Below are positions 4,386-34,586 of a stretch of DNA of 64,000 nucleotides, one piece after another. Made by a program: the position numbers and the translations under genes. A model generated the notes under the pieces. That model ran no database searches. It saw only the letters and a program-made list of their open reading frames with translations, and was not told the DNA's origin. The stretch covers positions 32,001 to 96,000 of the IMG/VR virus record IMGVR_UViG_3300036774_000066. One strand, 5' to 3'. The stretch's first letter is position 1. Each line of letters opens with the position of its first letter. Source of the DNA: a virus.

Positions 4386-4601
4386 TTACCCTCCCACATC
4401 CTCTATTTTCTCAGACTCAAGAAGTTCGTGGACCCCAACACCAATCTGCACCCCGCATTCAACCGCGTCCTCAATACACCCCTGAATCTCGTAGTAGTAT
4501 GACGTAAACTTCTTCACAAACCCCGTAGTATCATTCCACCTGTCAAACAAGTTCAAGGCGCGTCTCTTTGCAAAGTCTACTTCGCCTTTGGTGCAACCCA
4601 T
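4386..4601 (-). CDS. hypothetical protein
   Basis: ORF in operon, GGAGG RBS. Confidence 0.55.
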   Translation of the reverse strand: MGCTKGEVDFAKRRALNLFDRWNDTTGFVKKFTSYYYEIQGCIEDAVECGVQIGVGVHELLESEKIEDVGG

Positions 4602-4604
4602 AAA

Positions 4605-4820
4605 CTATTCCTCCACCTTATCCCATTCATCCGCGTCCATCAACGCCTTCATGACTGCCCTCTTGGTTTCTCTCCGGGCTTCATTGTATCCCTTTTCAAA
4701 GCAAAACTGCTGCTCTGAATGTAAACCACCAGTTCCAACTCTGGGTAACGTCCGTGGCTTCTTGACCTTCGCGTTCTTAATAATCCTGTAGATTTTCCTC
4801 ATGTCCTTGATTGTCACCAT
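4605..4820 (-). CDS. hypothetical protein
   Basis: ORF in operon, AGGAG RBS. Confidence 0.5.
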   Translation of the reverse strand: MVTIKDMRKIYRIIKNAKVKKPRTLPRVGTGGLHSEQQFCFEKGYNEARRETKRAVMKALMDADEWDKVEE

Positions 4821-5119
4821 AAGTCACTCCTCTTTACAAACTTCGCATTCATCTCCTCCCACACAGCTTTGCAGCAATCACATCCGTTCTTATCCGGTGC
4901 AAACTGGCACACAAACTTCGCCGGACAGTCTTGACACTTAACAGTATTTTCTTGTTTCTTCGGCTCTGATTTTTTCTTGCTCATACTATCTACTTCCTTT
5001 GGTTTTTCACACTCTCCACAGTTAATACAATGTAATATTCTCGGTGCCTTGACACACCAGATTCTATTTGCCATATTGAACAACCTCCTCACTTCCAAGC
5101 AATAACAAGATGTCCACAC
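4814..5119 (-). CDS. hypothetical Cys-rich protein (start uncertain)
   Basis: multiple CxxC motifs. Confidence 0.4.
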   Translation of the reverse strand: MWTSCYCLEVRRLFNMANRIWCVKAPRILHCINCGECEKPKEVDSMSKKKSEPKKQENTVKCQDCPAKFVCQFAPDKNGCDCCKAVWEEMNAKFVKRSDLW

Positions 5120-5240
5120 AAAACAAGTTTACAAACAATAAAACAGACTACCCACACCGGAATAAACGTCAGACAAAACACCTTAAATTGTCTTCTTCGC
5201 TCGTATTTCTCCCATGCTGCCCAACGGACTCTTAGCATAG

Positions 5241-5648
5241 TTAATCCTCACACAAAGGAAACATGCCTAAGTGCAGATTCAGCTTTTCAAGATGTTCTTT
5301 CAACTCCACCATACTTTTCTTCCCAAACCCAAAATTAAAACGACGTAAATCCCATTCTGTGTGTCTTACCAAATCAAAATACGTGACAATTCCAAGGTTG
5401 TGAAAAAGAACATAGTGTCTTACGCGCAATTCGTTAGTGTCTATCTTCTTTTTAAGCAACTCACACATATCAGACTTAATATCACACTCTGCAACCGTAG
5501 CATCATCTCTCGCCCTCTTTTCCTCCTCTACCAACCTATCAAACTCCTTCAAAGCAACTTGATACATAAAGCCCAAGACATCATCTGGAATAGTAGAATC
5601 TACTTTTCGTATCCGCACATAAGCATTAGCAATGTCGGACCTCTTCAT
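5241..5648 (-). CDS. RNA polymerase alpha-subunit C-terminal-domain (alpha-CTD)-like protein
   Basis: KIDTNELRVRHYVLFHNLGIVTYFDLVRHTEWDLRRFNFGFGKKSMVELKEHLEKLNLHLGM aligns by eye with RpoA CTD (IDELELSVRS.NCL...I..IGDLV...E.ELLK..NFG.KSL.EIK..L...GL.LGM). Confidence 0.75.
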   Translation of the reverse strand: MKRSDIANAYVRIRKVDSTIPDDVLGFMYQVALKEFDRLVEEEKRARDDATVAECDIKSDMCELLKKKIDTNELRVRHYVLFHNLGIVTYFDLVRHTEWDLRRFNFGFGKKSMVELKEHLEKLNLHLGMFPLCED

Positions 5649-5837
5649 AACATGCTCCCTTACTCAGAAACACCAAAGGTTACATCAAACTGACCAAGGG
5701 AATCAGGGTGTTCTCCCCACCACTCAACATTGCACTCCTCTAATTTACAATCGGCCTTTCCGTCCGGGTAAACGCGCACGCACTTGTTACACCAGACACA
5801 AGCCTTCTTTAGATGATTTTCTCTGGCTTTACTCACT

Positions 5838-6098
5838 TCACATTTCCTCCAACAAACCTTCCTGCACAGTATTGGTTTTCACAAACAGCTTTCTCTCCAA
5901 GGCAATTACTCTCACCCCGACACCTTTCTTAATTGACAATGCTGCGGCTTCCCTTACAGCGTCATCATAGTTTGACATCCCGCCCAATGATTTTTCAATT
6001 GCCTCTTTGTAATTTGATGGCACCGGGTAGCTTGGCGCGGGAATAGCCTTTATCTCAATAGACTTTTCATCTTCTGTTACCAAAAAATACTCTTTCAT
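5838..6098 (-). CDS. hypothetical protein
   Basis: ORF with AGGAG RBS. Confidence 0.55.
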   Translation of the reverse strand: MKEYFLVTEDEKSIEIKAIPAPSYPVPSNYKEAIEKSLGGMSNYDDAVREAAALSIKKGVGVRVIALERKLFVKTNTVQEGLLEEM

Positions 6099-6110
6099 AG
6101 TTGGGCTCCT

Positions 6111-6551
6111 TTACTTTACAACAATGCATCCACGGCAAATCACCTCAGACCACGGGGCTTTTATTCCACACGCAACAGGTACTTTCTCTATTAACCTGTA
6201 AACATGAGTAATACCCAAGTATTTCATCTCATTCACCGCGTTTTTCAAAACTTCTGCGTGTATTTCCGGGTCGTTTGACATTGGAGATTTACACCGGAAA
6301 CTAAGTTTCCACGTTATGCACTGCCTCGGTACAGTCTTTCCTTCTGCCGCAACTGCAAATAGCGACGTATGTACTTTCACAAAATCAGCAGGCACAATCA
6401 AGTCCCTTTCAATTTTCTCTTCATCCGTCTCCGTCCAACCGTTTTTCTTAGCTTCTTCTATTATCAATGCAAGTCCAAAGGACATATCTTCAATTCCTTC
6501 CTGTAAATCTGAATCCGGTCGTCTTGGCGCATCATAGCAAAACTCACTCAT
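6111..6551 (-). CDS. hypothetical protein
   Basis: ORF with GGAGG RBS. Confidence 0.55.
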   Translation of the reverse strand: MSEFCYDAPRRPDSDLQEGIEDMSFGLALIIEEAKKNGWTETDEEKIERDLIVPADFVKVHTSLFAVAAEGKTVPRQCITWKLSFRCKSPMSNDPEIHAEVLKNAVNEMKYLGITHVYRLIEKVPVACGIKAPWSEVICRGCIVVK

Positions 6552-15405: not shown

Positions 15406-15624
15406 CTATGTCAAGCCCTGCTTTTCCATCAACTTCTCAACTTGACTTCCACAAATCTGACAGATATTCTTCTCCCTTGCACACTTCTGACAAGATTGCT
15501 TTAGTTGCGTTCTGTAAAAAGAATATCGACCATGCTTCTCACACATGCCATCACCCATGCAGTCATGAAATAGACGCTTCTTTATCTTTTCACACTCTTT
15601 ACAAAGGTACATAGTACATCTCAC
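15406..15624 (-). CDS. Cys-rich Zn-binding protein, paralog of 57618-57830
   Basis: CxxC...CxxHGxY...CxxCAxExxxCQxCG shared with 57618-57830. Confidence 0.6.
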   Translation of the reverse strand: MRCTMYLCKECEKIKKRLFHDCMGDGMCEKHGRYSFYRTQLKQSCQKCAREKNICQICGSQVEKLMEKQGLT

Positions 15625-15826
15625 TCAATAGGGAAATCCCGGCACACTCGTATCCAACTCACTCTCCAAAATCAACTCCTTTATCACTGCACGTCGCAAT
15701 TCCGGTATCCGCTCATTTACCTTCTTGATAATCTTCTGAGAACACTCCACACAAAACCTAACCGCACAGGCTTTCTTGCATATCTCACACTTGTTTTTCA
15801 TGCTGCATTACCTGTAAAAACTTTAC

Positions 15827-15865
15827 AAAAAGAAAAAGGCACGTACCTATCTCTAAATACGTGCC
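15827..15865 (-). terminator. Rho-independent terminator
   Basis: stem GGCACGTA(15838-15845)/TACGTGCC(15858-15865) followed by a T-run on the minus strand, just after the SPFH gene. Confidence 0.75.
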
Positions 15866-15885
15866 CTTTCCCCAAAACCACAAGA

Positions 15886-16701
15886 CTACTTTCCTATTAC
15901 CACTCCACCGGGCTGTCCATCAATAATGGTAAAGGAAACACCAGTATTCTTTGCAGCAATGTCCTTGTACGTATCATACTTCTTGAAAAGCATGTACTCA
16001 GGGTTACGCCGCAATGCCTTTCCAAGTGAGTCAATCGTGGCTACTTGCGCCAATGATGCCTGCTTCGCATTCTCCGCTGCCCAAACAGTTTCATCCTGCT
16101 TGATATTGGAGAACTTCGCATTCTGCATAAGCAACGGCACCCCGGACGCTTTGAACGATTCAATTGCCATTGCAGACCCTTTTGTGCTCGCCCCGTCCAT
16201 GTCTACAACAACAGAATTGTAATCAGGATACTTACTAAGAACAGACCGAACACCTGACCGAATATCCATCTTGGCAAACTGAGTGTAGATAGCGTCAATC
16301 GTTATCACCGACACACGATCCATACTGGTAGACTTTGGAGTCATCTGTGCAAAAACCGCATTGCGTGTGTCAAGGTCAGCAGCTACCGCGCACCTAACAT
16401 AAAAATCAACAGTACACGGTGTCTTATTGATTATCACCCGGTCATCCTCCCCGTTCCCTCCATCCTTCCCAAAATGTTCCTTGATAGCAACTGACGTAGC
16501 CTCAAGTATAACAAGTACGTTCTTTGTTCCGTTAGGATTACCTGTCCCAATGTCAACCATGCCCGCCTCACGAACTCCCTTTTCCCACCCTGTCGGAGTA
16601 AGAATCTTTCCGACATATCCAGCAGGAATTTGCCGATACTCTTCACATCCGAGAAACACAAACGCCATCAGGCAAACCAAACCAACCAATCCGTACCTCA
16701 T
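15886..16701 (-). CDS. SPFH/band-7 domain lipoprotein
   Basis: signal/lipobox FLGC, IPAGYVGKIL, IRSGVRSVLSKY, C-terminal helical segment; typical phage SPFH layout. Confidence 0.65.
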   Translation of the reverse strand: MRYGLVGLVCLMAFVFLGCEEYRQIPAGYVGKILTPTGWEKGVREAGMVDIGTGNPNGTKNVLVILEATSVAIKEHFGKDGGNGEDDRVIINKTPCTVDFYVRCAVAADLDTRNAVFAQMTPKSTSMDRVSVITIDAIYTQFAKMDIRSGVRSVLSKYPDYNSVVVDMDGASTKGSAMAIESFKASGVPLLMQNAKFSNIKQDETVWAAENAKQASLAQVATIDSLGKALRRNPEYMLFKKYDTYKDIAAKNTGVSFTIIDGQPGGVVIGK

Positions 16702-17051
16702 TTCGCCTCCCCTTTGTTAGAGTTAGTAGAATTAAGAATACGTTGCTCATACGCCTTTTGCTGATCCAATACCTGACTCCGATCAATCACACCACGCGGA
16801 GTAGCATTGACGGACAGGGAAGACAGCAGGAACAAGGCGTAACCCACCCATGCAAGCCCGGCAATTGTCCACGCTACCCTCTTGACAAGTGCCTTGACCT
16901 TCATTTCATGCAATTCGTCATTGTCACCTTCGCCAAACAAGAACAACCGCCAGGAAAACCTACACACAACGGTCACAGCAACAAACAAGACAATCAACGC
17001 TATGACTAATCGCAATAGTGATGGACCATAGATTCTTAGCAGGTCAACCAT
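16698..17051 (-). CDS. membrane protein (2 TM segments)
   Basis: two hydrophobic helices; AGGAGG RBS at 17059-17064. Confidence 0.65.
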   Translation of the reverse strand: MVDLLRIYGPSLLRLVIALIVLFVAVTVVCRFSWRLFLFGEGDNDELHEMKVKALVKRVAWTIAGLAWVGYALFLLSSLSVNATPRGVIDRSQVLDQQKAYEQRILNSTNSNKGEAK

Positions 17052-17070
17052 TAAGAAACCTCCTTTGAAA

Positions 17071-17871
17071 AATGCGAAACAAAGCTACACTATACTTCAC
17101 CAAAACACCACGGCACAGGCTCCAACACCACCGCAACACCACCCAACGGTACGTTACTCTACCGTCACTCGACATAACGATTCCCAACTCAACCTCACCG
17201 CCGCAAGACAGAACCAAACTTCACCGAAACACTGCGGCACGGAACCAAACCCTACCACAACCGCGCCCTACTGAACATGACGCTACCGTCAAGGAACTTG
17301 ACCGCACAATACGTCACCACAACCAGACGTTAGCATACCGGACAAAACCCAACCCTACCATCACATCATGGCACGACACGATACCTCCACAGAACATAAC
17401 TTCACCACTACGCCACGAGACAATACTCTACCGTCACCCATCGGCACGATACTATACCAAAACGTGACTGCACCTTACCAAGACAAGACGTAACGGCACT
17501 ACACCTTACCACGACAGGACGTGATAGAACGTCACGTCACCTCACCAAGACACTATCTCACCTGACCGAACCAAGACGTTAGGATACCTCACTGCGCAAT
17601 ACTTAACCGTCCCCCAACATAACGATTCCAAACCCGACCTCACCGGAACACTACGCGACTGCACCCAACTCCACCACGACAATACCTCACCCTACCCCAC
17701 GTAACGATACCGTGACCAAACATCTCCCGACATTACAACACCAGAACATCACACTACGTCAAGGCACTCCACTTTACCACCACCAGAAAACACATAATGA
17801 AACGTAACCTCACCGAAACCGAAACCGGACCGCACTGTACCTAACCAATACAAACATTACCATTACGTTAT
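17071..17871 (-). ncRNA. 5-nt-periodic (GT-NNN)n array, candidate multi-guide RNA precursor for the adjacent RAMP protein (VIPR-like)
   Basis: hand parse gives ~153 units, ~133 ending AC on + (GT on gene strand); 27 six-nt units, all CNNNNN on +, divide it into blocks; no minus-strand ORF >=60 aa; begins right at the RAMP stop codon. Confidence 0.8.
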
Positions 17872-18546
17872 CTACTCAACCTTTGTCAAGGTATAGTCAA
17901 ACTTCCCATAGATACCAGAATTATGCCACTGACCAAAACCCTTGACATCGCGTGAATAGTCAAAAAGAAGACGCAGAATTTCCTCCGTTGCACAAAACTT
18001 CGGAATCTCATAGCAAGTAACCTGACACTCAAAAAAAGCACCCGCTTCAATCATCTCACTCCGAGCCAAGGAAACTCGTGGACCTTGCTTAGTCATAGCA
18101 CGAAGAGGACGCTCCAAAAATCCGATAGGTTTATCTGTAATCAAACGGATTCTGTGAGGATTGACAGCAACAGACTTGTCAATATTGGAGCGAAAGTTAG
18201 AAAGAGTCTCGTCAACCTCTTCTTCCTTCTTCATTTTCTTCTTGCCCGTAACAAAACCATTTAATGCCTCCGCTGACGCTTTCAAAACCCCCTTGACAAC
18301 ATAGCTGTAAAGAATGGGCATACCGTCAGTATCTCGATGAAAAACCGTTGTACCTTTCTCAACCTCTTCAGGGAGAGTACCCGTTTCTTCGATAATCGCA
18401 CTCGCCAAGGCAGGATTTTTCTCGATTGCCTTCTTCGTCAAGAACTCACTCGCCGGAGTATCCTTACCAGGAAGACTCCCCAAGATCGGCTCTACAAACA
18501 TCACTTTCAAATTGTACACACTACGGGCAAGAACAAGACCAGACAT
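17872..18546 (-). CDS. stand-alone Cas7/Csm3-like RAMP protein (Vipr-like)
   Basis: YNLKVMFVEPILGS (RAMP beta1), HRDTDGMPILYSYVVKGVLK (cf. Csm3 P.IPGSSLKG), SEMIEAGAFF (cf. E.VPAG..F), C-terminal Gly-rich loop KGFGQWHNSGIYGKF. Confidence 0.8.
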   Translation of the reverse strand: MSGLVLARSVYNLKVMFVEPILGSLPGKDTPASEFLTKKAIEKNPALASAIIEETGTLPEEVEKGTTVFHRDTDGMPILYSYVVKGVLKASAEALNGFVTGKKKMKKEEEVDETLSNFRSNIDKSVAVNPHRIRLITDKPIGFLERPLRAMTKQGPRVSLARSEMIEAGAFFECQVTCYEIPKFCATEEILRLLFDYSRDVKGFGQWHNSGIYGKFDYTLTKVE

Positions 18547-18581
18547 AACACACCCCTTTTGTTAGTAGTTAAAGCATCCTG

Positions 18582-18920
18582 TCAATCATCATCACAGTTC
18601 TTATCAGGATCAAGAATAGGTTCTACATCCCCCTCAAGGAAAATCTTTGTCTTCCCATTCTCAGCGTAAGGAGAGAAATTCATTAACTCGTCAAGGTCTT
18701 CCCTCGTTATATGTCTCTTTACGTAGAGCAACGAAACCAGCTTGGCACAAACCTTTCTTAATTCATTCAATTCCGATCTTAAAGACTCTATCTCTCCACT
18801 ACCAAAATCCATCCCCCTCATCACTCTATCAATATGCTCTTCAATAGGAGCAATATCAGTGACGTTAGTAAAGTACCCACGGGAAGTCTTAACAAGAACT
18901 TTGCGCCCGTTACATTCCAT
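18582..18920 (-). CDS. hypothetical protein
   Basis: ORF with GAGG RBS. Confidence 0.55.
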   Translation of the reverse strand: MECNGRKVLVKTSRGYFTNVTDIAPIEEHIDRVMRGMDFGSGEIESLRSELNELRKVCAKLVSLLYVKRHITREDLDELMNFSPYAENGKTKIFLEGDVEPILDPDKNCDDD

Positions 18921-19122
18921 AAGCTACCTCTTTTTGAGGATTCAGTAAACCACGCTTCTTGACTTCATCACATACCGCCCGAAAATACTTCTTCTCCTCC
19001 CCTTTCAATCCCTCTTCATTCCGTCCAATCCGTATCCAAATAATCATCTCATTAAGCAATACGTCATTACTCATCTCTTCTACAGGAATTGGAAGAATAT
19101 TCACCCCAACACCTTCACTCAT
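18910..19122 (-). CDS. hypothetical protein
   Basis: ORF overlapping neighbours. Confidence 0.5.
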   Translation of the reverse strand: MSEGVGVNILPIPVEEMSNDVLLNEMIIWIRIGRNEEGLKGEEKKYFRAVCDEVKKRGLLNPQKEVAYGM

Positions 19123-19319
19123 TCAGGCACCTCAGCCGTATCTGTCAACTGAGCACATACTATCTTAAAGCATTCATCACAAACTATGTCACACTGCGAC
19201 ACAGGAACACCAGGAAATAAGGCTTCCTTCTCCTCCAATGCCACTTCTTCGGAAACCTCTTTTTCAAAGATACCTCCACACATCGCACACTGAAATTCAT
19301 TGTCCTTCAAGTCCGGCAT
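19119..19319 (-). CDS. small Zn-ribbon protein
   Basis: FQCAMCGG...VCDECF. Confidence 0.55.
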   Translation of the reverse strand: MPDLKDNEFQCAMCGGIFEKEVSEEVALEEKEALFPGVPVSQCDIVCDECFKIVCAQLTDTAEVPE

Positions 19320-19332
19320 ACTCTTTCCCTCT

Positions 19333-19653
19333 TTACATTTTAGGACGCAAGAAATAAATCATGCCAACATCAGCAGCAAAGACATTTACTTGTCGTTTAA
19401 TAGCAGAATCACCAAAGAAATCAATCAAGTCACAACGCAAAGGAAACCCGTTGAACGATACCATAACCGACTTAGTATCCTTTACAAACTGCTCACACTC
19501 CTGCAAGTCACCGTCTATCCTATCCTCTGAAATACCTCTACCAAACAATGACCGAAAAGAAGGTATGTCACCCTCTTTCTTATTAACTGCAAGAGCATCT
19601 ATCCAATATTTTGTGCCTAATCTTTTATCTACTAATTGCTGAATATCTGGCAT
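19333..19653 (-). CDS. hypothetical protein
   Basis: start moved to MPDI (19653) to remove overlap with upstream gene. Confidence 0.5.
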   Translation of the reverse strand: MPDIQQLVDKRLGTKYWIDALAVNKKEGDIPSFRSLFGRGISEDRIDGDLQECEQFVKDTKSVMVSFNGFPLRCDLIDFFGDSAIKRQVNVFAADVGMIYFLRPKM

Positions 19654-19658
19654 ACTCT

Positions 19659-19925
19659 TTACTCCATGTAAACAAACATCTTCTCCCGATTCATTGACTT
19701 CCACGTATATGTAAGAACTTTCAATTCCGGGCAATCCCTCACAATCTTTTCCAATTCATCAGGCTTCACCGCTGGCACCACGTTCTCCGATACCATCAAC
19801 GCTATCTGAAATACCAAATCCGTAAACTTCAAACCACCAGAAAAATCCTCCACGATCCTCATGATCGCAGTTTTTATCTGGGCTATCCTATCCTGATCCC
19901 TGTCATCATGTAATACGTCGGACAT
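19659..19925 (-). CDS. hypothetical protein
   Basis: start moved to MSDV (19925), AGGAG RBS. Confidence 0.5.
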   Translation of the reverse strand: MSDVLHDDRDQDRIAQIKTAIMRIVEDFSGGLKFTDLVFQIALMVSENVVPAVKPDELEKIVRDCPELKVLTYTWKSMNREKMFVYME

Positions 19926-19936
19926 ACCAAAACTCC

Positions 19937-20131
19937 TTAGACTGTTGCTATGTGATCGCTGGTAAGCACTGTAACACCGTCCTTTAGCACCTGAGTACGC
20001 TTTGCCACCTCTGCCTCTTCTAACCACCTCTCAACCTCATCTAACTCCCTACGGGCCTCCTCTGCATCAAGCCCACCCGCGTTAGTCATGTACAAAACCC
20101 TCTCCACAACCAACTTTGCTTTTTCAAACAT
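19937..20131 (-). CDS. hypothetical protein
   Basis: ORF in operon. Confidence 0.45.
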   Translation of the reverse strand: MFEKAKLVVERVLYMTNAGGLDAEEARRELDEVERWLEEAEVAKRTQVLKDGVTVLTSDHIATV

Positions 20132-20146
20132 AGCAGTAAATCCCTT

Positions 20147-23100
20147 CTACACGATCCAGAGTCTCCCGAAATGCTCCTCTTTGCCTTCCTTGTCATCATA
20201 TTTAATCCCGTCGAACCACCGCAAACCGTAGTAATCCGTGCCTTCCCCGTCATCTTTACTTAGCATAATACTAAATGGCAATTGTGTAAACTTATCAGGT
20301 GGACCGTCAAGATTGATTAAGTCCCAAGGAATCTCTACGGAATAGGTAGTAACATAACTGTCCTTTTCACGGGTTATCAACCCTGTAAACTTGGACCCCT
20401 TTGAACTATACTCCCCAACAGGGTAATCCTTCTCGTTTGCCGTCTTGCAAAGACCCATAATCATCTGTCCATCATCAGAACGTAAGGCCATACCAATCAC
20501 CGCCGCCTTCCCACCAGGACTCATTACACCAATCTTCAATCCATCCTCACAATGTATCCGGTCCATTGTCCTCTGAAAAGCCCGGTGTATAGGGTGAACT
20601 GCAATCACCTTTACAATTAAGAATTTGTCATTGTACCACGCCCTCCATGCTGCTCTCAAAGTATGCTGAATATCCTCTGCCTTCTTCTTCAAAGTCTCAG
20701 GAAATACAGCGTAAGGAAATTCACCCATACTATACAAAGGAGAAGGCTCCCTCGAAGCACAAGCAAAACTCGCCATGAGGCTTCTCTTGATCGAAATATT
20801 ATCATCCGGTGAAGAAACATCAACAGAAATTTCACCTACTGTAAAATTGACAACACCAAAAGGTATGCTGACAATGTGAGTCTCGTGTCCACCAAAAAAT
20901 TCTTGTCTGTTAATAAGAAACCCATTCCCAGACAACGCTATGTTAATAGTCCTTGTATGATTCGCGTTACTGGCAATAGTAACAACTACCTCTTTCCCAT
21001 TTTGTATAGAAAGTTCTATCTTTCTTACCTCTAACAATTCTCCTACGTGAACAGGTACACACATCCATCCTATTCCGTTATGTAAAACAACAGAGTAATC
21101 TCCAGCAACCGTTCCTTCACGGGTAACAACTTCTATCCAACTATCCTTCAAAGTAACTTCGAGTTCTCTTCTTAATACCGACCAACCCTTCCCTATAACG
21201 GTAGAAAATTTTTGTCCTGCTGCCTGTGGTGGAATAGCTATCGAAGGCTGTACCTCTCCATCACAAAATCTCTTGTCTACCTCTTCCTCCCAAGTCAACT
21301 TACTGTTCCATCCAAAAATCCTTGTTGCAATACCGTGTGAATCTTTCCAAATCTGAATACCAGAAAAAGGACTCAGCCATACAGTACGAGATAAACTCCA
21401 ACCTTTCAAAGGGAAATTCACCAATCCAATCAATTCCTGCACGTCAACCAACTCAAAGGGTGTATGCCACTGGTAAAAATCCACATCTTCCAAAGCAATT
21501 CTCTCGCTCAATTCCCTCGGAGTACCTAAGTCAAAAATGGCAGAAACTACCATGCAAGAATTTAAGTCATTCCCACTCTTTGACCAATCAAGCAACTCTA
21601 CATCTCTGTCTCCACTGCCAGACAATCCTAACTTCCTTCCCGTAATAGAGTTTTCCCAAAGTAAACCAACATCAGACGAGTTCTCTAAATAAATCAACAC
21701 TGCCTTTCCATGATTCCAAAAAACATTATTATCACTCCAATTATCCTCACAGCGGGGCATTTCTGGCATTCGAGAAATCCCACCCTTACTGTTATTCACG
21801 AAGAAATTGTTGTAGATTTTATTGCCAGAAGTAGTAGTGTGGACACCAAGATACTTATACCTATGAAGTAAAGCACGTATCTTTACCCCGTACTGTGTTC
21901 CCTTTACAAAATTGCGAAAGAAGTGAGCATTGTTTCCATCATGTGTGTAAAATCCACACTCAGCAGCATCGCTTCCCTCTCTGGTATCAATGATTGTATT
22001 ACTGTCAATCATGACAGGACCATCAGACATTTCATGGAAAATGCCGTATGGCTTGCTGTCAACTATTAAGTTCTGTGTGATCCTGTCTCTTGCACAATCC
22101 CCATCCAGCCATATACCATAACAACACCGCTCAATCTTGTTTTTCTTTATCAAGCTATCATCAACAGCATGAAACTTAATACCACACTCCTCACACGTAC
22201 CTACCACCCCAGGCTTTATACAATTGTCAACAATTTCATTATACTCAATACCTAAGTCATGCGAATAAAATGCCACAATGCCCGAGATTCCATTATCATG
22301 AATCTTGTTTCCTCTCACCGTATGAAATCCCCCCACGGAATGTTCTTTTATCCACTTCACAAAGGCATATATGTAAGGCTCCCCGTACTCTCCCAAATCA
22401 AGCATAGATATATCTTTATTTACAATGGGAATATTCATCGCACTCTTCGCAAATCCACCCATTCCCAAATTAAGTCCTTGTGCATTACCGTAAGATATTT
22501 CACAGTTTTCAATGGTAAAGTTAGCTCCTGCGTTCACATCAACTACGGACAACTGATTGACAGAATGCCACGTCGGTCCTGCCCAAATCGGGGCACAGCC
22601 GCCAACAAACCTAATTCCAGAAACCTTGATATTTTCCAAGCCCCTGACAATAGGCACAAAACACTGCTGCCTTACTGACCTTTCAACTTTACACCTACCC
22701 GGATGATCTGGTAAACAAACATAAATGCGAGAATTATCTTCATCCACCCACATTGAGTACAGACACAACTTCTCCTTCTCTTTTACTTCTGTCAACAAAA
22801 CACTGTTGACAAAAATCTGCTCACATCCCACATTCGGAGTAATACGTACATAGTAGATATTACTTTCATCACGAAACCACTCAGAACTCCATTCGTCCAT
22901 TGCGCACACTACCGGGGGAACTTCATCTTGTGCTGCCTCAATAGAAATTTCAGAACAATATGGCTTTATACACTCTCTGTAAACCCCTTCATGAATTATT
23001 ATCCTATCGCCAGGAAGAGCACTCTCCACAGCACACCGAACAGTCTTTACAGGTGACTGAAAAGAGCCGATGTTCTTATCGCTCCCTCGCATACTTGACA

Positions 23101-28081: not shown

Positions 28082-28699
28082 TTAAGGTGTAATACCAGAA
28101 ATTCCAAGCCTTTCCTTCTCTTTGCATGTTCTACACTTCCCACACTCCTTAAAAAATCCAAACTCTGTTTTTATAGGTGTACGACAAGACCACGCCATAT
28201 CAATCAGACTTTTTGGCAAGATACTGACATAATCCCTTTTTGTCAAGGAAACTACCGGATAAATTCTCTGTACATCTGTATACAATTCCCAAAGTTTATC
28301 TGTCCTTTCTTTACATCTGACATAATACTCCGCTGTATTCCCATCATCATCCTTATTCTTTCCCGTAGCAACCATCTTTATCTGAGGGTAAAACAGGCAG
28401 ATATTCGCAGCTATAAACAGATACACGTCCTTGTCCCAAAACAAACTCTTTCCTATGTCAAAGGTACTTTCCGATGTGTAAAATTCACGAGGAACGTACC
28501 TTCGGAAATATTCATAGATATTTGCTGTTGCTATCCTCTCTGCTTCATTTCTATTCTCTCTGTTGATGAAGTTAATCCTATGAGAATGAATCACAAAATC
28601 ACTATACTGTGCATCGGTCAACAAATAGTAAAGAGCAGCAACAGAGTCTAACCCTCCCGAAAACATCAACAAAATCGTGGGCTTATCAACAAACTTCAT
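28082..28699 (-). CDS. second QueC-like PP-loop ATPase
   Basis: LMFSGGLDS PP-loop; AWSCR...CGKCRTC Zn site. Confidence 0.75.
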   Translation of the reverse strand: MKFVDKPTILLMFSGGLDSVAALYYLLTDAQYSDFVIHSHRINFINRENRNEAERIATANIYEYFRRYVPREFYTSESTFDIGKSLFWDKDVYLFIAANICLFYPQIKMVATGKNKDDDGNTAEYYVRCKERTDKLWELYTDVQRIYPVVSLTKRDYVSILPKSLIDMAWSCRTPIKTEFGFFKECGKCRTCKEKERLGISGITP

Positions 28700-29067
28700 T
28701 ACTTTTCTTCTTTTTGAGTATAGTCACATAGCGGGTAAGTAGTACATCCCCAAAAAGTCTCCTTTGACAACCTGTTTGTCCTCTGTGTCAAAAATCCCTT
28801 TTTGCATTTCGGACATGGAAAGGCAGTAGAACCTTTTAACCTCAACGCCTCTAAGTTAGTATACTCTACTCTGTTCCGTGCTCCAATTTCACGATACTTC
28901 TCATACTTTCCAGCGGCAATAACCTTCCTTGCCTGAAGAACAGAGGTACACACACCAAGGGCAACCAACTCCTTCTCTCTTTCCCGATCTTCCGTTCTCT
29001 CCCTCTCCCTTTGCTCCTCCTCCATCTCATTTTCCTTCTCTTCCCTTGACATCTGTTTCATTATCAC
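28699..29067 (-). CDS. protein with topoisomerase-type C4 zinc finger
   Basis: CPKCKKGFLTQR...FWGCTTYPLCDYT. Confidence 0.7.
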   Translation of the reverse strand: MIMKQMSREEKENEMEEEQRERERTEDREREKELVALGVCTSVLQARKVIAAGKYEKYREIGARNRVEYTNLEALRLKGSTAFPCPKCKKGFLTQRTNRLSKETFWGCTTYPLCDYTQKEEK

Positions 29068-31602: not shown

Positions 31603-31794
31603 TTAAGACTTACTTAACTTGTCAACTTCCACCCATTTTCTATCACCACCAAAAAGTTCTACAATAACGACACTCCCTCTCTCATTGTCAGAAATACCTG
31701 AATTTTCTATCCCTGCAACATGCCCTGTGTAAAGTGTTCCCATTCCATCCCGAAACTCAACAAGAAGACCTACCTTTACTTCTTCTTTTTTCAT
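31603..31794 (-). CDS. hypothetical protein
   Basis: ORF overlapping upstream stop. Confidence 0.5.
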   Translation of the reverse strand: MKKEEVKVGLLVEFRDGMGTLYTGHVAGIENSGISDNERGSVVIVELFGGDRKWVEVDKLSKS

Positions 31795-34586
31795 AATCTC
31801 CCCAATTTCTTGACAATTGCTTTACGGGTGCATAACTCACAAAACCGTGAATCATTCTGCTCATAAACATCAAAGTAGGTATGATTATTACACCCGGCTA
31901 CAGCACAAACTCCCAAACCTTCCCTGAAATACTTAATACGCTGACAAGAAAACTTCGTATAGACATCGAGAAACTTAATCCCGGTCATCGAAGATAGAAA
32001 AACAAAGGGATTCAACTTATTAGGCAAAGAAACCACCAACTCCCCGGTTGTATAACTAAGAAAAATCTCAGGTATTTCTGGCATCAAAACAGGGCTACCC
32101 ACTATCAAGTGAAAATCTGCAAACTTTACGTTCTTAGGATATACAATCCTTCGGTCAAAGTTTCTTGCACTTTCTCTAATAGAAATAACATCAACAGCAT
32201 CAGAAGGCTTAATAACAAGCATCTGCCAATCCTCATACTTTACTCCACGATAACCAACATCCACATACTTCAAGTCTACCATACCTAACGTCTTTACTTC
32301 AGGTGCTACTCTTGTATATGCTGCCTTCACTTCGTCAAGACTTGAGTATTCATTTCTAAGTAACACTTCTACAAGAAAAACTCCCCAAGAGTAATCTGGA
32401 ATATTACCCTTTTTTATCCCGATGAAATAAGAACACCTTCCTATTTCCCGCGTGCTCAAGACATAGTTATCCGGCAATTCCCTCATTATTCTTGACCAAA
32501 GGTATCTGAAATTAGACGCAACATTCAAGTATGAATACTCCGGCTCTCTCCATAACTTCACCAGCAGTTTATTTTGCGCTTGTCCCATCTCATTGAATGA
32601 CAAAACATCATCAACAGTTGTAGAAACATCAAACTCCCTCTCTACCCGAGCCAATCTTTTCTCTGCTGTATCACAATACCCACAAGCTACACACTCTCCT
32701 TTAAGCTGTGCAGGAGTTGACAAACAATGATTGATCTGCTGAAACTGTCGGATACTTCTATTAACCCGTACAAGATACTCTTTGTTCCAATCAATAATAT
32801 CATCGGGAAAGATAAAATCATAAGGCTTTTCATCAAAAACATCCTGTAAATCAATCCCCGCTCTATCAAGTTTCTCAATCAAAACCTTTACCCCGGCACC
32901 GTCACAGTCCTTCTTGTACACCACCAAACTATGATTGATTGACATATCCACAAGGAAAGGGGTAAAGACCCTTCCTAAGTCAATCATCAACTGACTCACA
33001 AAATTAGTCCACGCCCTCGAAGAAAACCTTACCTGCATTCCCATTTCATCAACAAACATCCGCAGCATACCCTCAAACGCTCTCTCCTCTCTCAAAAACA
33101 TCAAGTAAGTATTCCTCTTCTCCCACGCCATCGGAGTATTCGTACAGTAAATCAGGTGAGTAAAAGAAACCTCAAACTTAATACCAGCAGTACGCAAACT
33201 CAAAGCATAATCCCGCATCTCTTGAATAAAAGATACAAACTCCTTTTTGTCTTCCTCTGTCTCTCTACCCGTATAAATGCAGTACAACTTCACACTTTGA
33301 AAATGATGGTCAATACATCTGCGAATAGCTACCTTAAATTCTTCAGTCGAAATATTCTTATTAAGGTAATGCCTCATTCTCTCTGATATACCCTCAAAAC
33401 CATAGGAGATACTTCTCATTCCCAACTTATTAGCAAGTGTAAAGTAATCAGAACGTGCTGCTATTATATCTGCCCTCATAGTCATAAACAGCACACGAGG
33501 ATAAATCTCAAGACCCAATTTCACAAGGTCAAGATACCGAGAATAGTAATTGTTATTGAAACTCAACCAGCCTATCGAATTACACATACCAAACTTACGG
33601 GAACTAATCAAGTCACTCCGAATACGCTCCAATGACTTTTCTCTCCATCCCCCAGAGATATTTCCCTCATGACAAAAGCTACAAGACCCTCCTGAACTGC
33701 ATCCCCAAGAGATAATCACGTCCATTCCATCATCAGCAGGTTCAATTGACGAATATATAATTTTTCTAACGTCTTTCGGACTTGAATCAAAAGACTCTTC
33801 TCTATGATACTTGACTTTATCAGGGGCATCATCAATTACCTTGTTTACTTTGCTAATTCTCCACCTGTCTTTGTACTCGTACTGATACGCAAGAGGATGC
33901 ACAAAGTTTTCAAATCGGAAAAACTTTCGCAGTCTCTCCTCTTTACTTGTGTAAGGCTCTAACAAAGTGTCAATTATCTTAGGAATTACACCCTCACCAT
34001 ACCCAATAAAAGCACCGTCAATCAATGCTGTTTCTTTCCCGTCCTCTGAACTTCCTAAAAATACGTCTACAAAATCAGCAGAGTTTCCACCAACAAAGAA
34101 AAAAGGAATCCGATCTTCCTTCATGCGCTGAGTGTGCCAAATAGGAATAGCCGAATGATGAAGCAACCACGGAAGATTCATCTTTTCAGGAAGAACTGAA
34201 TTAGAAATCAAAACTACATCGAAGTCGAGCACACTCCGATGAGAAGCCACACCATGCCACACAGGAAGTTTATGCTTTTCGTAAAGAGAGAAATTCTGCT
34301 TCTCCGGCATGAATGCTATATCAACATAAACCTGATCCCCCAGGTTTTGCTTTATCAAGCTAATCAAGATACCATCTGCTGACCCTTTACACTTGGACAA
34401 ACCCTTCATCATAAAAGCAAGTAACACTCGTATCCTTGCCTTATCGAAATTATCTGGATTGTCAAGGTTAGAATCATAAACAGAGATAATCCCAGGGTCA
34501 ACGAAAGTCTTAATGTTCTCCTCTAAAACTTTCTGTATATGCTCAGATGTATTTATTATTTCTCTGTCTGCTGACATTCTTGCCAT
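31791..34586 (-). CDS. large radical SAM protein (TIGR03960-like, B12-binding-type N-terminus)
   Basis: SVLDFDVVLIS, VGGN, GAFIGYGE, GCSSGGSCSFCHEG cluster motif, GFEGISERMR..LNK, TNTPMAW, CVACGYC. Confidence 0.75.
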   Translation of the reverse strand: MARMSADREIINTSEHIQKVLEENIKTFVDPGIISVYDSNLDNPDNFDKARIRVLLAFMMKGLSKCKGSADGILISLIKQNLGDQVYVDIAFMPEKQNFSLYEKHKLPVWHGVASHRSVLDFDVVLISNSVLPEKMNLPWLLHHSAIPIWHTQRMKEDRIPFFFVGGNSADFVDVFLGSSEDGKETALIDGAFIGYGEGVIPKIIDTLLEPYTSKEERLRKFFRFENFVHPLAYQYEYKDRWRISKVNKVIDDAPDKVKYHREESFDSSPKDVRKIIYSSIEPADDGMDVIISWGCSSGGSCSFCHEGNISGGWREKSLERIRSDLISSRKFGMCNSIGWLSFNNNYYSRYLDLVKLGLEIYPRVLFMTMRADIIAARSDYFTLANKLGMRSISYGFEGISERMRHYLNKNISTEEFKVAIRRCIDHHFQSVKLYCIYTGRETEEDKKEFVSFIQEMRDYALSLRTAGIKFEVSFTHLIYCTNTPMAWEKRNTYLMFLREERAFEGMLRMFVDEMGMQVRFSSRAWTNFVSQLMIDLGRVFTPFLVDMSINHSLVVYKKDCDGAGVKVLIEKLDRAGIDLQDVFDEKPYDFIFPDDIIDWNKEYLVRVNRSIRQFQQINHCLSTPAQLKGECVACGYCDTAEKRLARVEREFDVSTTVDDVLSFNEMGQAQNKLLVKLWREPEYSYLNVASNFRYLWSRIMRELPDNYVLSTREIGRCSYFIGIKKGNIPDYSWGVFLVEVLLRNEYSSLDEVKAAYTRVAPEVKTLGMVDLKYVDVGYRGVKYEDWQMLVIKPSDAVDVISIRESARNFDRRIVYPKNVKFADFHLIVGSPVLMPEIPEIFLSYTTGELVVSLPNKLNPFVFLSSMTGIKFLDVYTKFSCQRIKYFREGLGVCAVAGCNNHTYFDVYEQNDSRFCELCTRKAIVKKLGRL

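What the first reader, a model, noticed from the sequence alone, without database searches (positions are those of the whole stretch)
17071..18546. Solitary Cas7-like RAMP gene plus an 800-nt (GU-NNN)n array: candidate phage RNA-guided system with an interleaved guide code
Seen: the 224-aa ORF has RAMP/Csm3-type motifs (N-terminal strand FVEPILGS, GMPILYSYVVKG, EMIEAGAFF, terminal Gly loop GFGQWHNSGIYGKF). From its stop codon onward the sequence is non-coding on the gene strand and parses into ~153 units, of which ~133 begin with GT and 5 more with GC, each followed by three variable bases (e.g. GTAAA GTGGA GTGCC TTGAC GTAGT GTGAT). No CRISPR repeat-spacer array and no cas1/2/3/5/6/8/10 occur in the 64 kb. 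Established: Cas7-family RAMPs polymerise along guide RNA with a fixed per-subunit register (6 nt in Cascade/Csm). Inference: this protein coats the array RNA at one subunit per 5 nt, gripping the constant GU and displaying the variable bases, so repeat and spacer are interleaved base by base; targets might be competing phages/MGEs or host genes. From memory this resembles the recently reported VIPR systems (GGY/NN RNAs). Here, though, the base before GT is G in only about 38 of 124 ordinary units, so the constant part is 2 nt rather than 3, suggesting a distinct variant.
Basis: partly seen in the sequence, partly recalled or inferred. Interest (0 to 1): 0.97.

Follow-up and report, generated by a model that had tools for sequence, protein, structure and literature searches.

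The report
Phage VIPR system, staggered GY-NNN array
A large uncultivated phage carries a small Cas7-like protein gene followed by a 791-base five-letter repeat RNA array; it belongs to the recently published VIPR family of phage RNA-guided DNA-binding systems, in a little-studied form with only two constant letters per repeat.

Summary
Window 17076-17866 (minus strand) holds 153 units, of which 132 start GT and 6 start GC. It is the only period-5 tract in the 64 kb (lag-5 z = 10.4). It begins 5 nt after the stop codon of a 224-aa ORF.

An extra G every 4-7 units splits the array into about 25 blocks. However, the preprint already lists YNNNG repeats and "staggered" arrays, so this is a new member of a known kind.

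No tail, ribozyme or conserved vap gene was found. Natural targets and the pairing rule remain unresolved; the exact-match scans were negative, and so was the positive control. Other first-stage reads of this genome noted the same stretch.

The parts
17872..18546 (-). vipr gene: 224-aa stand-alone RAMP (Cas7-like) protein, P0001
18049..18126 (-). predicted thumb: long beta-hairpin, residues 141-166, carrying the invariant RPLRA.T.QGPR..LARSE motif
   Evidence: DSSP of the model shows strands 141-152 and 155-166. Invariant columns R146, P147, T152, G155, A161, R162, S163, E164. Assignment as the thumb is by analogy with Cas7/Vipr and is an inference.
17899..17940 (-). glycine-rich loop, residues 203-216 (G-F-G-Q-W-H-N-S-G-I-Y-G-K-F)
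   Evidence: G203, W207 and G214 are invariant; G205, Q206 and R208 are >=90% conserved. It aligns to the SUSP1 G-loop G174-F185: D177->Q206, W178->W207, R179->H208 (R in relatives). The roles of the SUSP1 residues come from the cryo-EM preprint.
17076..17866 (-). vrRNA array: 153 units of G-Y-N-N-N (132 GT, 6 GC), divided into about 25 blocks of 4-8 units by 27 six-base units that add one G (boundary consensus Y-G|G-Y-R)
   Evidence: Equivalent arrays abut the gene in about 75 of 80 homologous viral loci, with the same +1-G punctuation. No Rfam family, ribozyme or tail structure.
17049..17065 (-). RBS (AAGGAGG, 17059-17065) and ATG (17049-17051) of the next gene, a 117-aa predicted membrane protein, about 10 nt after the last repeat. 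No terminator lies between the array and this gene.
   Evidence: Sequence read directly, ORF list, terminator scan. This implies the array lies inside a polycistronic minus-strand transcript (inference).

Best explanation
This is a VIPR (Viral Interference Programmable Repeat) system carried by a 156.6-kb uncultivated phage. It consists of a vipr gene encoding a minimal Cas7-like RAMP and, directly downstream on the same strand, a 791-nt array of pentanucleotide repeats that is transcribed into guide RNA (vrRNA). By homology with the SUSP1 system, Vipr protomers would polymerise on the RNA at one protomer per 5-nt repeat. They would flip out and hold the constant G-Y, present the variable bases for gapped base pairing with double-stranded DNA of a competitor (another phage, satellite or prophage), and so repress its transcription. 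This locus belongs to a large clade in which only G2 and Y3 of the canonical GGY are constant (the YNNNG form). Its array is continuous ('staggered'): an extra G every 4-7 repeats recreates a full GGY and shifts the register by +1, giving about 25 guide-sized blocks with no 3' tail, ribozyme or conserved accessory gene. Shown here: fold, homology, array anatomy, gene-array linkage across about 75 loci, hypervariability confined to the three N positions, and phage context. Inferred: transcription, RNP formation, DNA targeting, the pairing rule and the identity of the targets.
Against: No expression or binding data exist for this locus or, according to the preprint text, for staggered arrays: only the ribozyme and single-vrRNA architectures are stated to be confirmed by sRNA-seq. 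No natural target was found under any rule. The positive control with a SUSP1 vrRNA also failed, so those negatives carry little weight. No vap gene is recognisable, although VIPR loci 'typically' have one. The family profile against the single SUSP1 sequence gives only 52% probability, and no direct sequence hit links the clades. Assignment to one of the seven published types could not be made because the figures and data tables are not held.
Confidence: 0.85

Rival explanations
1. It is a VIPR relative with a different recognition code. Because the G1 pocket is lost, the third variable base also pairs, giving three bases read per protomer (target NNN or NNNx instead of NNx). Each +1-G-delimited block of 5-6 repeats would be a separate guide spanning one helical turn.
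For: All three N positions are equally hypervariable (5.7, 6.0 and 6.0% against 1.0 and 2.3% for G and Y). The third N is G at only 11-54%, close to background in most arrays. Shuffling the third base worsens a codon model by about 200 nats, and TAG and TAA are the two most depleted triplets. Blocks containing both sense and antisense stop triplets are fewer than expected (8 against 15, p = 0.018). Block length peaks at 5-6 units, matching the 6 and 5 subunits per turn of SUSP1 filaments. A block read as NN would specify only 8-16 bases.
Against: The triplet bias correlates equally well with ORF trinucleotide bias in all three frames and both orientations (rho 0.38-0.55), so it is generic genomic bias. 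TGA is not depleted. Two 21-nt contiguous-triplet patterns have no exact match in IMG/VR. In the chance-level hits to the xNN pattern, the skipped base matches the third guide base in only 0-3 of 8 positions. The published systems all use the 1-nt skip, which is tied to codon wobble.
Confidence: 0.12
2. The array RNA is not a trans-acting guide. It is a cis-regulatory or scaffold element: Vipr coats the intergenic RNA of its own operon to control stability or translation of the downstream membrane-protein gene, or the RNA acts as a decoy.
For: The array lies between vipr and the next gene's RBS with no terminator or tail. No target was found.
Against: The downstream gene is not conserved with vipr in any of 80 loci. 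Arrays lie upstream of the gene in many loci. Rapid change confined to the N positions is expected for guides, not for a scaffold. Homologous SUSP1 vrRNAs are proven trans-acting DNA guides.
Confidence: 0.03

Closest known systems
VIPR type II (Escherichia phage SUSP1 and the Pseudomonas fulva prophage; bioRxiv 10.64898/2026.04.26.720920 and 10.64898/2026.04.26.720927)
   Same: A phage-borne, stand-alone, roughly 200-aa RAMP that is homologous at profile level over its full length. It shares the G-loop G.G.WR..G.F. A 5-nt repeat RNA with a constant G-Y and hypervariable bases lies beside the gene. No cas genes or CRISPR array.
   Different: Position 1 of GGY is not conserved here (32% G). There is one continuous 791-nt array with +1-G punctuation instead of separate ~100-nt vrRNAs of 9-16 repeats, each with a pseudoknotted 3' tail. 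No vap1 homolog. The G1-contact residues are changed: H17->S24 and D177->Q206.
VIPR variants with YNNNG repeats and 'staggered vrRNA arrays' (methods and fig. S17-S18 of the same preprint)
   Same: (GY-NNN)n is YNNNG in another phase. Adjacent blocks abut without spacers and are offset by one nucleotide, as the legend of fig. S18 describes.
   Different: Identity could not be verified, because the figures, type table and accession lists are not held. The text does not state that staggered arrays were validated by sRNA-seq, and it gives no pairing rule for YNNNG repeats.
Csm3/Cas7 backbone subunits of type III and type VII CRISPR-Cas effectors
   Different: About 10% sequence identity and no match to the Pfam RAMP family. 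The repeat register is 5 nt, not 6 nt. No crRNA repeat-spacer array, Cas10, Cas6 or adaptation genes; only Cas1, Cas2 and the Pfam RAMP family were searched directly.

Membership tests
VIPR | Sequence homology to an experimentally validated Vipr (SUSP1) | tested here: met
   hhalign A2 against A3: 94.8% probability, E 5e-8, 181 aligned columns. Weaker against the single sequence (52%). No direct tblastn hit.
VIPR | Tandem pentanucleotide repeats beside vipr with the canonical GGY/NN (YNNGG) consensus | tested here: not met
   Only G2 and Y3 are constant. The first position is G in 35 of 111 regular units, and at 11-54% across the clade.
VIPR | Tandem pentanucleotide repeats with a 'related consensus' accepted by the authors (NNNGG, YNNNG, NNNNG) | tested here: met
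   153 units, of which 138 start GY, equivalent to YNNNG. Conserved next to the gene in about 75 of 80 loci.
VIPR | Non-CRISPR context: no CRISPR array and no other cas genes | tested here: met
   No Cas1, Cas2 or Pfam RAMP-family match in the 156.6-kb genome. No CRISPR-like repeats by TRF. Cas3/5/6/8/10 families were not searched individually.
VIPR | Accessory vap gene next to vipr ('typically' present; defines the type) | tested here: inconclusive
   Neighbouring ORFs have no Pfam or PHROG DNA-binding or nuclease hit, and none recurs in the other 80 loci. A novel vap cannot be excluded. A relative (L097) has an HNH gene between vipr and its array.
VIPR | Mainly viral or proviral location | tested here: met
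   G000 is an IMG/VR virus record, 93% complete. 217 viral contigs carry relatives.
VIPR | vrRNA is expressed and co-purifies with Vipr as an RNP filament | not testable with these tools
   Needs sRNA-seq, pull-down and cryo-EM.
VIPR | Variable bases match natural DNA targets under the 1-nt skip rule (xNN) | tested here: inconclusive
   No excess over shuffled controls locally. IMG/VR exact scans gave chance-level or zero hits. The SUSP1 positive control also gave zero hits.
CRISPR-Cas type III / VII effector | Cas7 backbone together with a repeat-spacer crRNA array and signature genes (Cas10 or Cas14, Cas5, Cas6) | tested here: not met
   Only the fold is shared. No CRISPR array, Cas1, Cas2 or second RAMP in the genome. 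The repeat register is 5 nt with interleaved constant and variable bases.

The most novel reading that the evidence does not exclude
The GY-NNN clade (over 1,000 protein clusters) may use a different code from published VIPR. With the G1 pocket lost (D177->Q, H17->S/T), three bases per protomer would be read. The +1-G punctuation would cut a single long transcript into about 25 guides of 5-6 repeats, each spanning one helical turn, without tails, ribozymes or an accessory protein. That would be a second noncontiguous recognition code and a new array-processing logic.
Probability: 0.12. Interest if true: 0.7.

Novelty: new member of a known kind. Interest (0 to 1): 0.4.

Why it matters
VIPR is a newly described way of guiding a protein to DNA with RNA, and is proposed to be ancestral to CRISPR. 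This locus shows the system in a 157-kb lytic-type phage in a very compact form: one gene and one long array, with no recognisable accessory gene. The analysis also documents rules that hold across a very large and experimentally untouched clade: a two-base constant part, three equally variable positions, an extra G every 5-6 repeats, and an invariant Gln where SUSP1 uses Asp to read G1. These rules give concrete handles for testing how repeat recognition and guide length are set, and whether the pairing code differs. As an identification it is not new, because the family and this repeat form are already in the literature.

Tried and rejected
1. Pfam, PHROGs and PDB sequence searches of P0001 found nothing. 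Only structure and profile-profile comparison identify it.
2. Coding potential of the array was rejected. The periodicity is 5 rather than 3, with +1 shifts. The 131-aa plus-strand ORF across it is best explained as an artefact of the T-poor antisense strand; it was not searched against any protein database.
3. No hammerhead ribozyme or other known RNA family was found at E<=1 in 15500-20500.
4. No 3' tail or pseudoknot was found. The array ends fold no better than shuffles (z = +0.35 and -1.52), and the whole-array MFE per nt equals that of coding controls and shuffles.
5. Internal promoters or terminators were not found above chance (3 promoter-like sites against 3.7 expected).
6. Codon-likeness of the variable triplets: the TAA/TAG depletion is real but not frame-specific, and array-specific positional nulls beat all codon models. 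It was rejected as evidence for a triplet code.
7. The local target search gave one apparent excess (rule bcx, 7 against 1). It traced to a canonical GGT-NN array in L020 where the 'variable' base is always G, and was rejected.
8. The first estimate that arrays are ~90% identical when genes are 100% identical came from blastn averaging over overlapping repeat HSPs. Global alignment corrected it to 98.3%.
9. A covariation test of G1 conservation against pocket residues was not possible, because Q206 is invariant in the clade.
10. Assignment to a VIPR type failed because no figures or tables are held.
11. The 'T4-like' label from earlier notes was not verified. The RecA-like recombinase is at most 32% identical to any cultured phage.

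Full report
**Observation**

On the minus strand, a 224-aa ORF (17872-18546) ends in TAG. Five bases later a 791-nt tract begins (17866 down to 17076).
- A dynamic-programming parse gives 153 units: 125 pentamers, 27 hexamers and 1 tetramer. Of these, 132 begin GT and 6 begin GC.
- Positions 3-5 of each unit show no dominant base.
- Lag-5 identity is 0.469, against 0.301 +/- 0.016 in dinucleotide-preserving shuffles (z = 10.4). Lag-3 identity is at background, so the tract is not coding.
- A sliding scan finds this signal nowhere else in the 64 kb. Only one such array exists in the whole 156.6-kb genome.

**Second-level grammar**

Twenty-seven units are six bases long, and 26 of them end in G. 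They recur every 3-7 pentamers, shift the register by +1 and create a full GGY at each boundary. This explains the lag-26 autocorrelation peak. Anchoring on the boundaries gives a weak extended consensus of Y-G|G-Y-R. The array is thus a chain of about 25 blocks of 4-8 repeats, or 21-41 nt.

**The protein**

Pfam, PHROGs and PDB sequence searches find nothing.
- The protein has more than 220 close relatives and 1,188 cluster representatives at E<=1e-3, all unnamed.
- An AlphaFold2 model built on 59 relatives is confident (pLDDT 87.1, pTM 0.81).
- Foldseek returns 198 PDB chains at E<=1e-3, and all those listed are Cas7-family backbone subunits: type VII Cas7, Csm3, Cas7-11 and type IV Cas7.
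- The model has a long beta-hairpin (141-166) carrying the family's invariant RPLRA.T.QGPR..LARSE motif, and a Gly-rich loop (203-214) before the last strand.

**Link to published VIPR**

Two 2026 preprints describe VIPR: a small phage-encoded RAMP (Vipr) plus vrRNAs made of GGY/NN pentanucleotide repeats. One protomer binds per repeat, GGY is flipped out, NN pairs with DNA, and one target base is skipped.
- I located the reference locus in phage SUSP1 (KT454805.2). The 195-aa gene lies at 28474-29061, vap1 is downstream, and GGT-NN arrays with conserved tails flank them.
- A 120-sequence profile of our family against a 52-sequence profile of the SUSP1 clade gives 94.8% probability and E 5e-8 over 181 columns, essentially the full length.
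- The phage has no Cas1, Cas2, Pfam RAMP-family match or CRISPR array. It is a virus record estimated at 93% complete.

**Gene-array linkage**

Of 217 IMG/VR contigs encoding relatives, I examined 80. About 75 have a G-rich period-5 tract on the gene strand, starting right after the gene or ending right before it.
- vipr is the only ORF of our neighbourhood that recurs in the other 80 loci. No accessory gene is shared across the clade.
- The constant dinucleotide is GC or GT in most arrays, and in every array with a strong signal.
- The +1-G punctuation recurs in every long array tested. In L025, for example, 65 of 67 hexamers end in G.
- Over 673 family blocks, length peaks at 5 and 6 units, and 72% have 5-7 units.

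**Guide-like evolution**

In closely related loci compared by global alignment, substitutions per position are G 1.0%, Y 2.3%, and 5.7, 6.0 and 6.0% for the three variable positions.

| Pair | Gene divergence | Array divergence |
|---|---|---|
| L074/L080 | 0% | 1.7% |
| L044/L045 | 2.0% | 7.4% |
| L056/L062 | 1.3% | 5.2% |
| L071/L078 | 7.4% | 8.6% |

Several pairs with 88-90% identical genes have arrays with no detectable similarity. An earlier figure of '90%' from blastn was an artefact of overlapping repeat HSPs and is withdrawn.

**Why only GY is constant**

In SUSP1 Vipr, G1 is read by H17 and D177, G2 by R138 and W178, and Y3 by R179 and others.
- In alignments, our clade has S/T at the H17 position and an invariant Gln at D177. 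It keeps Trp (or Phe) at W178, and Arg at R179 (His in our protein).
- Across the clade, the first repeat position is G at only 11-54%, close to the background G content in most arrays.
- The loss of the G1 constraint therefore coincides with replacement of both G1 contacts. This is a single between-clade contrast and remains an inference.

**Is it a new variant?**

(GT-NNN)n read in another phase is YNNNG. The preprint's methods list YNNNG, NNNGG and NNNNG as alternative vrRNA repeats. Its results and fig. S18 describe 'staggered arrays' in which adjacent vrRNAs abut and share 1-nt overlapping positions. Our array fits both descriptions.
- I could not confirm the match or assign a type, because the figures and data tables are not held.
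- The text says that only the ribozyme-interspersed and single-vrRNA architectures were confirmed by sRNA-seq. The staggered form therefore appears to be uncharacterised experimentally.

**Targets and code: unresolved**
- Local searches of 1.5 Mb (81 loci plus the phage's own genome) under seven pairing rules show no excess over shuffled units. The one apparent excess came from a canonical array with a constant G.
- There is no self-targeting.
- In IMG/VR, an 8-unit block under xNN gives 14 hits. That is near chance, the skipped base matches the third guide base in only 0-3 of 8 positions, and other blocks do not converge on those loci.
- Two 21-nt contiguous-triplet patterns give no hit.
- Three 20-nt xNN patterns from long blocks of homologous arrays give no hit.
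- A positive control from a SUSP1 vrRNA also gives no hit. Exact scanning of this collection is therefore insensitive, and these negatives are weak.
- Intrinsic statistics are also inconclusive. TAG and TAA are the two most depleted variable triplets (0.42 and 0.55), while TAT and TAC are at expectation. But the triplet bias correlates equally with ORF trinucleotide bias in all frames and both orientations.

**Other anatomy**
- No Rfam family or ribozyme was found.
- No tail structure at either array end.
- No promoter or terminator above chance.
- The next gene's RBS starts about 10 nt after the last repeat, so the array probably lies inside a polycistronic transcript.
- The phage has a RecA-like recombinase, an SbcCD-like pair, a DNA ligase and a beta-helix fibre protein. 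It has no close cultured relative: at most 32% identity for the recombinase.

**Verdict**

This is a real, well-delimited VIPR locus. The system and this repeat form are already published, so it is a new member of a known kind. What remains open is the pairing rule of the GY-NNN clade and the meaning of the +1-G blocks. Their modal length equals the 5-6 protomers per turn of the SUSP1 filament.

Noticed in passing
L097:4001-5800 (Logan SRR29366204 contig, 104 kb): In a relative whose Vipr is 45% identical, a 223-aa HNH-domain gene sits between vipr and its period-5 array (array at about 5420-5800). It could be a nuclease-type vap or a homing endonuclease inserted into the locus.
   Followed up: partly
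L020:6026-6251: A canonical GGT-NN vrRNA-like tract of 11 repeats lies about 1.5 kb downstream of a vipr of the GY-NNN clade, which also has its own GC-NNN array at 4526-4901. Two repeat types therefore occur in one locus. Whether a second vipr gene lies nearby was not checked.
   Followed up: no
L025:3051-3901 and 4551-6276: One viral locus has arrays on both sides of vipr. The downstream array is about 1.7 kb long, with 67 +1-G boundaries at a very regular spacing of 4-5 pentamers.
   Followed up: partly
proteins P0133 (432 aa) and P0164 (458 aa): Two relatives are about twice the normal length and match the query in two stretches. They look like tandem-fused double Vipr proteins, reminiscent of fused Cas7 repeats in Cas7-11.
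   Followed up: no
window 17582-17596 and 17327-17341; 17616-17627 and 17173-17184 (minus strand): Two short motifs with degenerate anchors recur inside the array: GTAT[C/G]-CTAAC-GTCT (blocks 12 and 21) and GAATC-GTTAT-GT (blocks 11 and 26). They may be partial block duplications or guides to related sites. Coordinates are approximate, read from the parses.
   Followed up: no
window 31791-34586 (-): A 931-aa phage protein with radical SAM N-terminal and core domains (Pfam E 4e-9 and 2e-8). This is unusually large for a phage radical SAM enzyme.
   Followed up: no
L044-L080 (human-gut IMG/VR sample 3300045988 and relatives): In this sub-clade the array lies upstream of vipr. Small ORFs of about 100 aa and 91 aa flank the module in 20-22 loci. 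They could be a clade-specific vap or plain synteny.
   Followed up: partly
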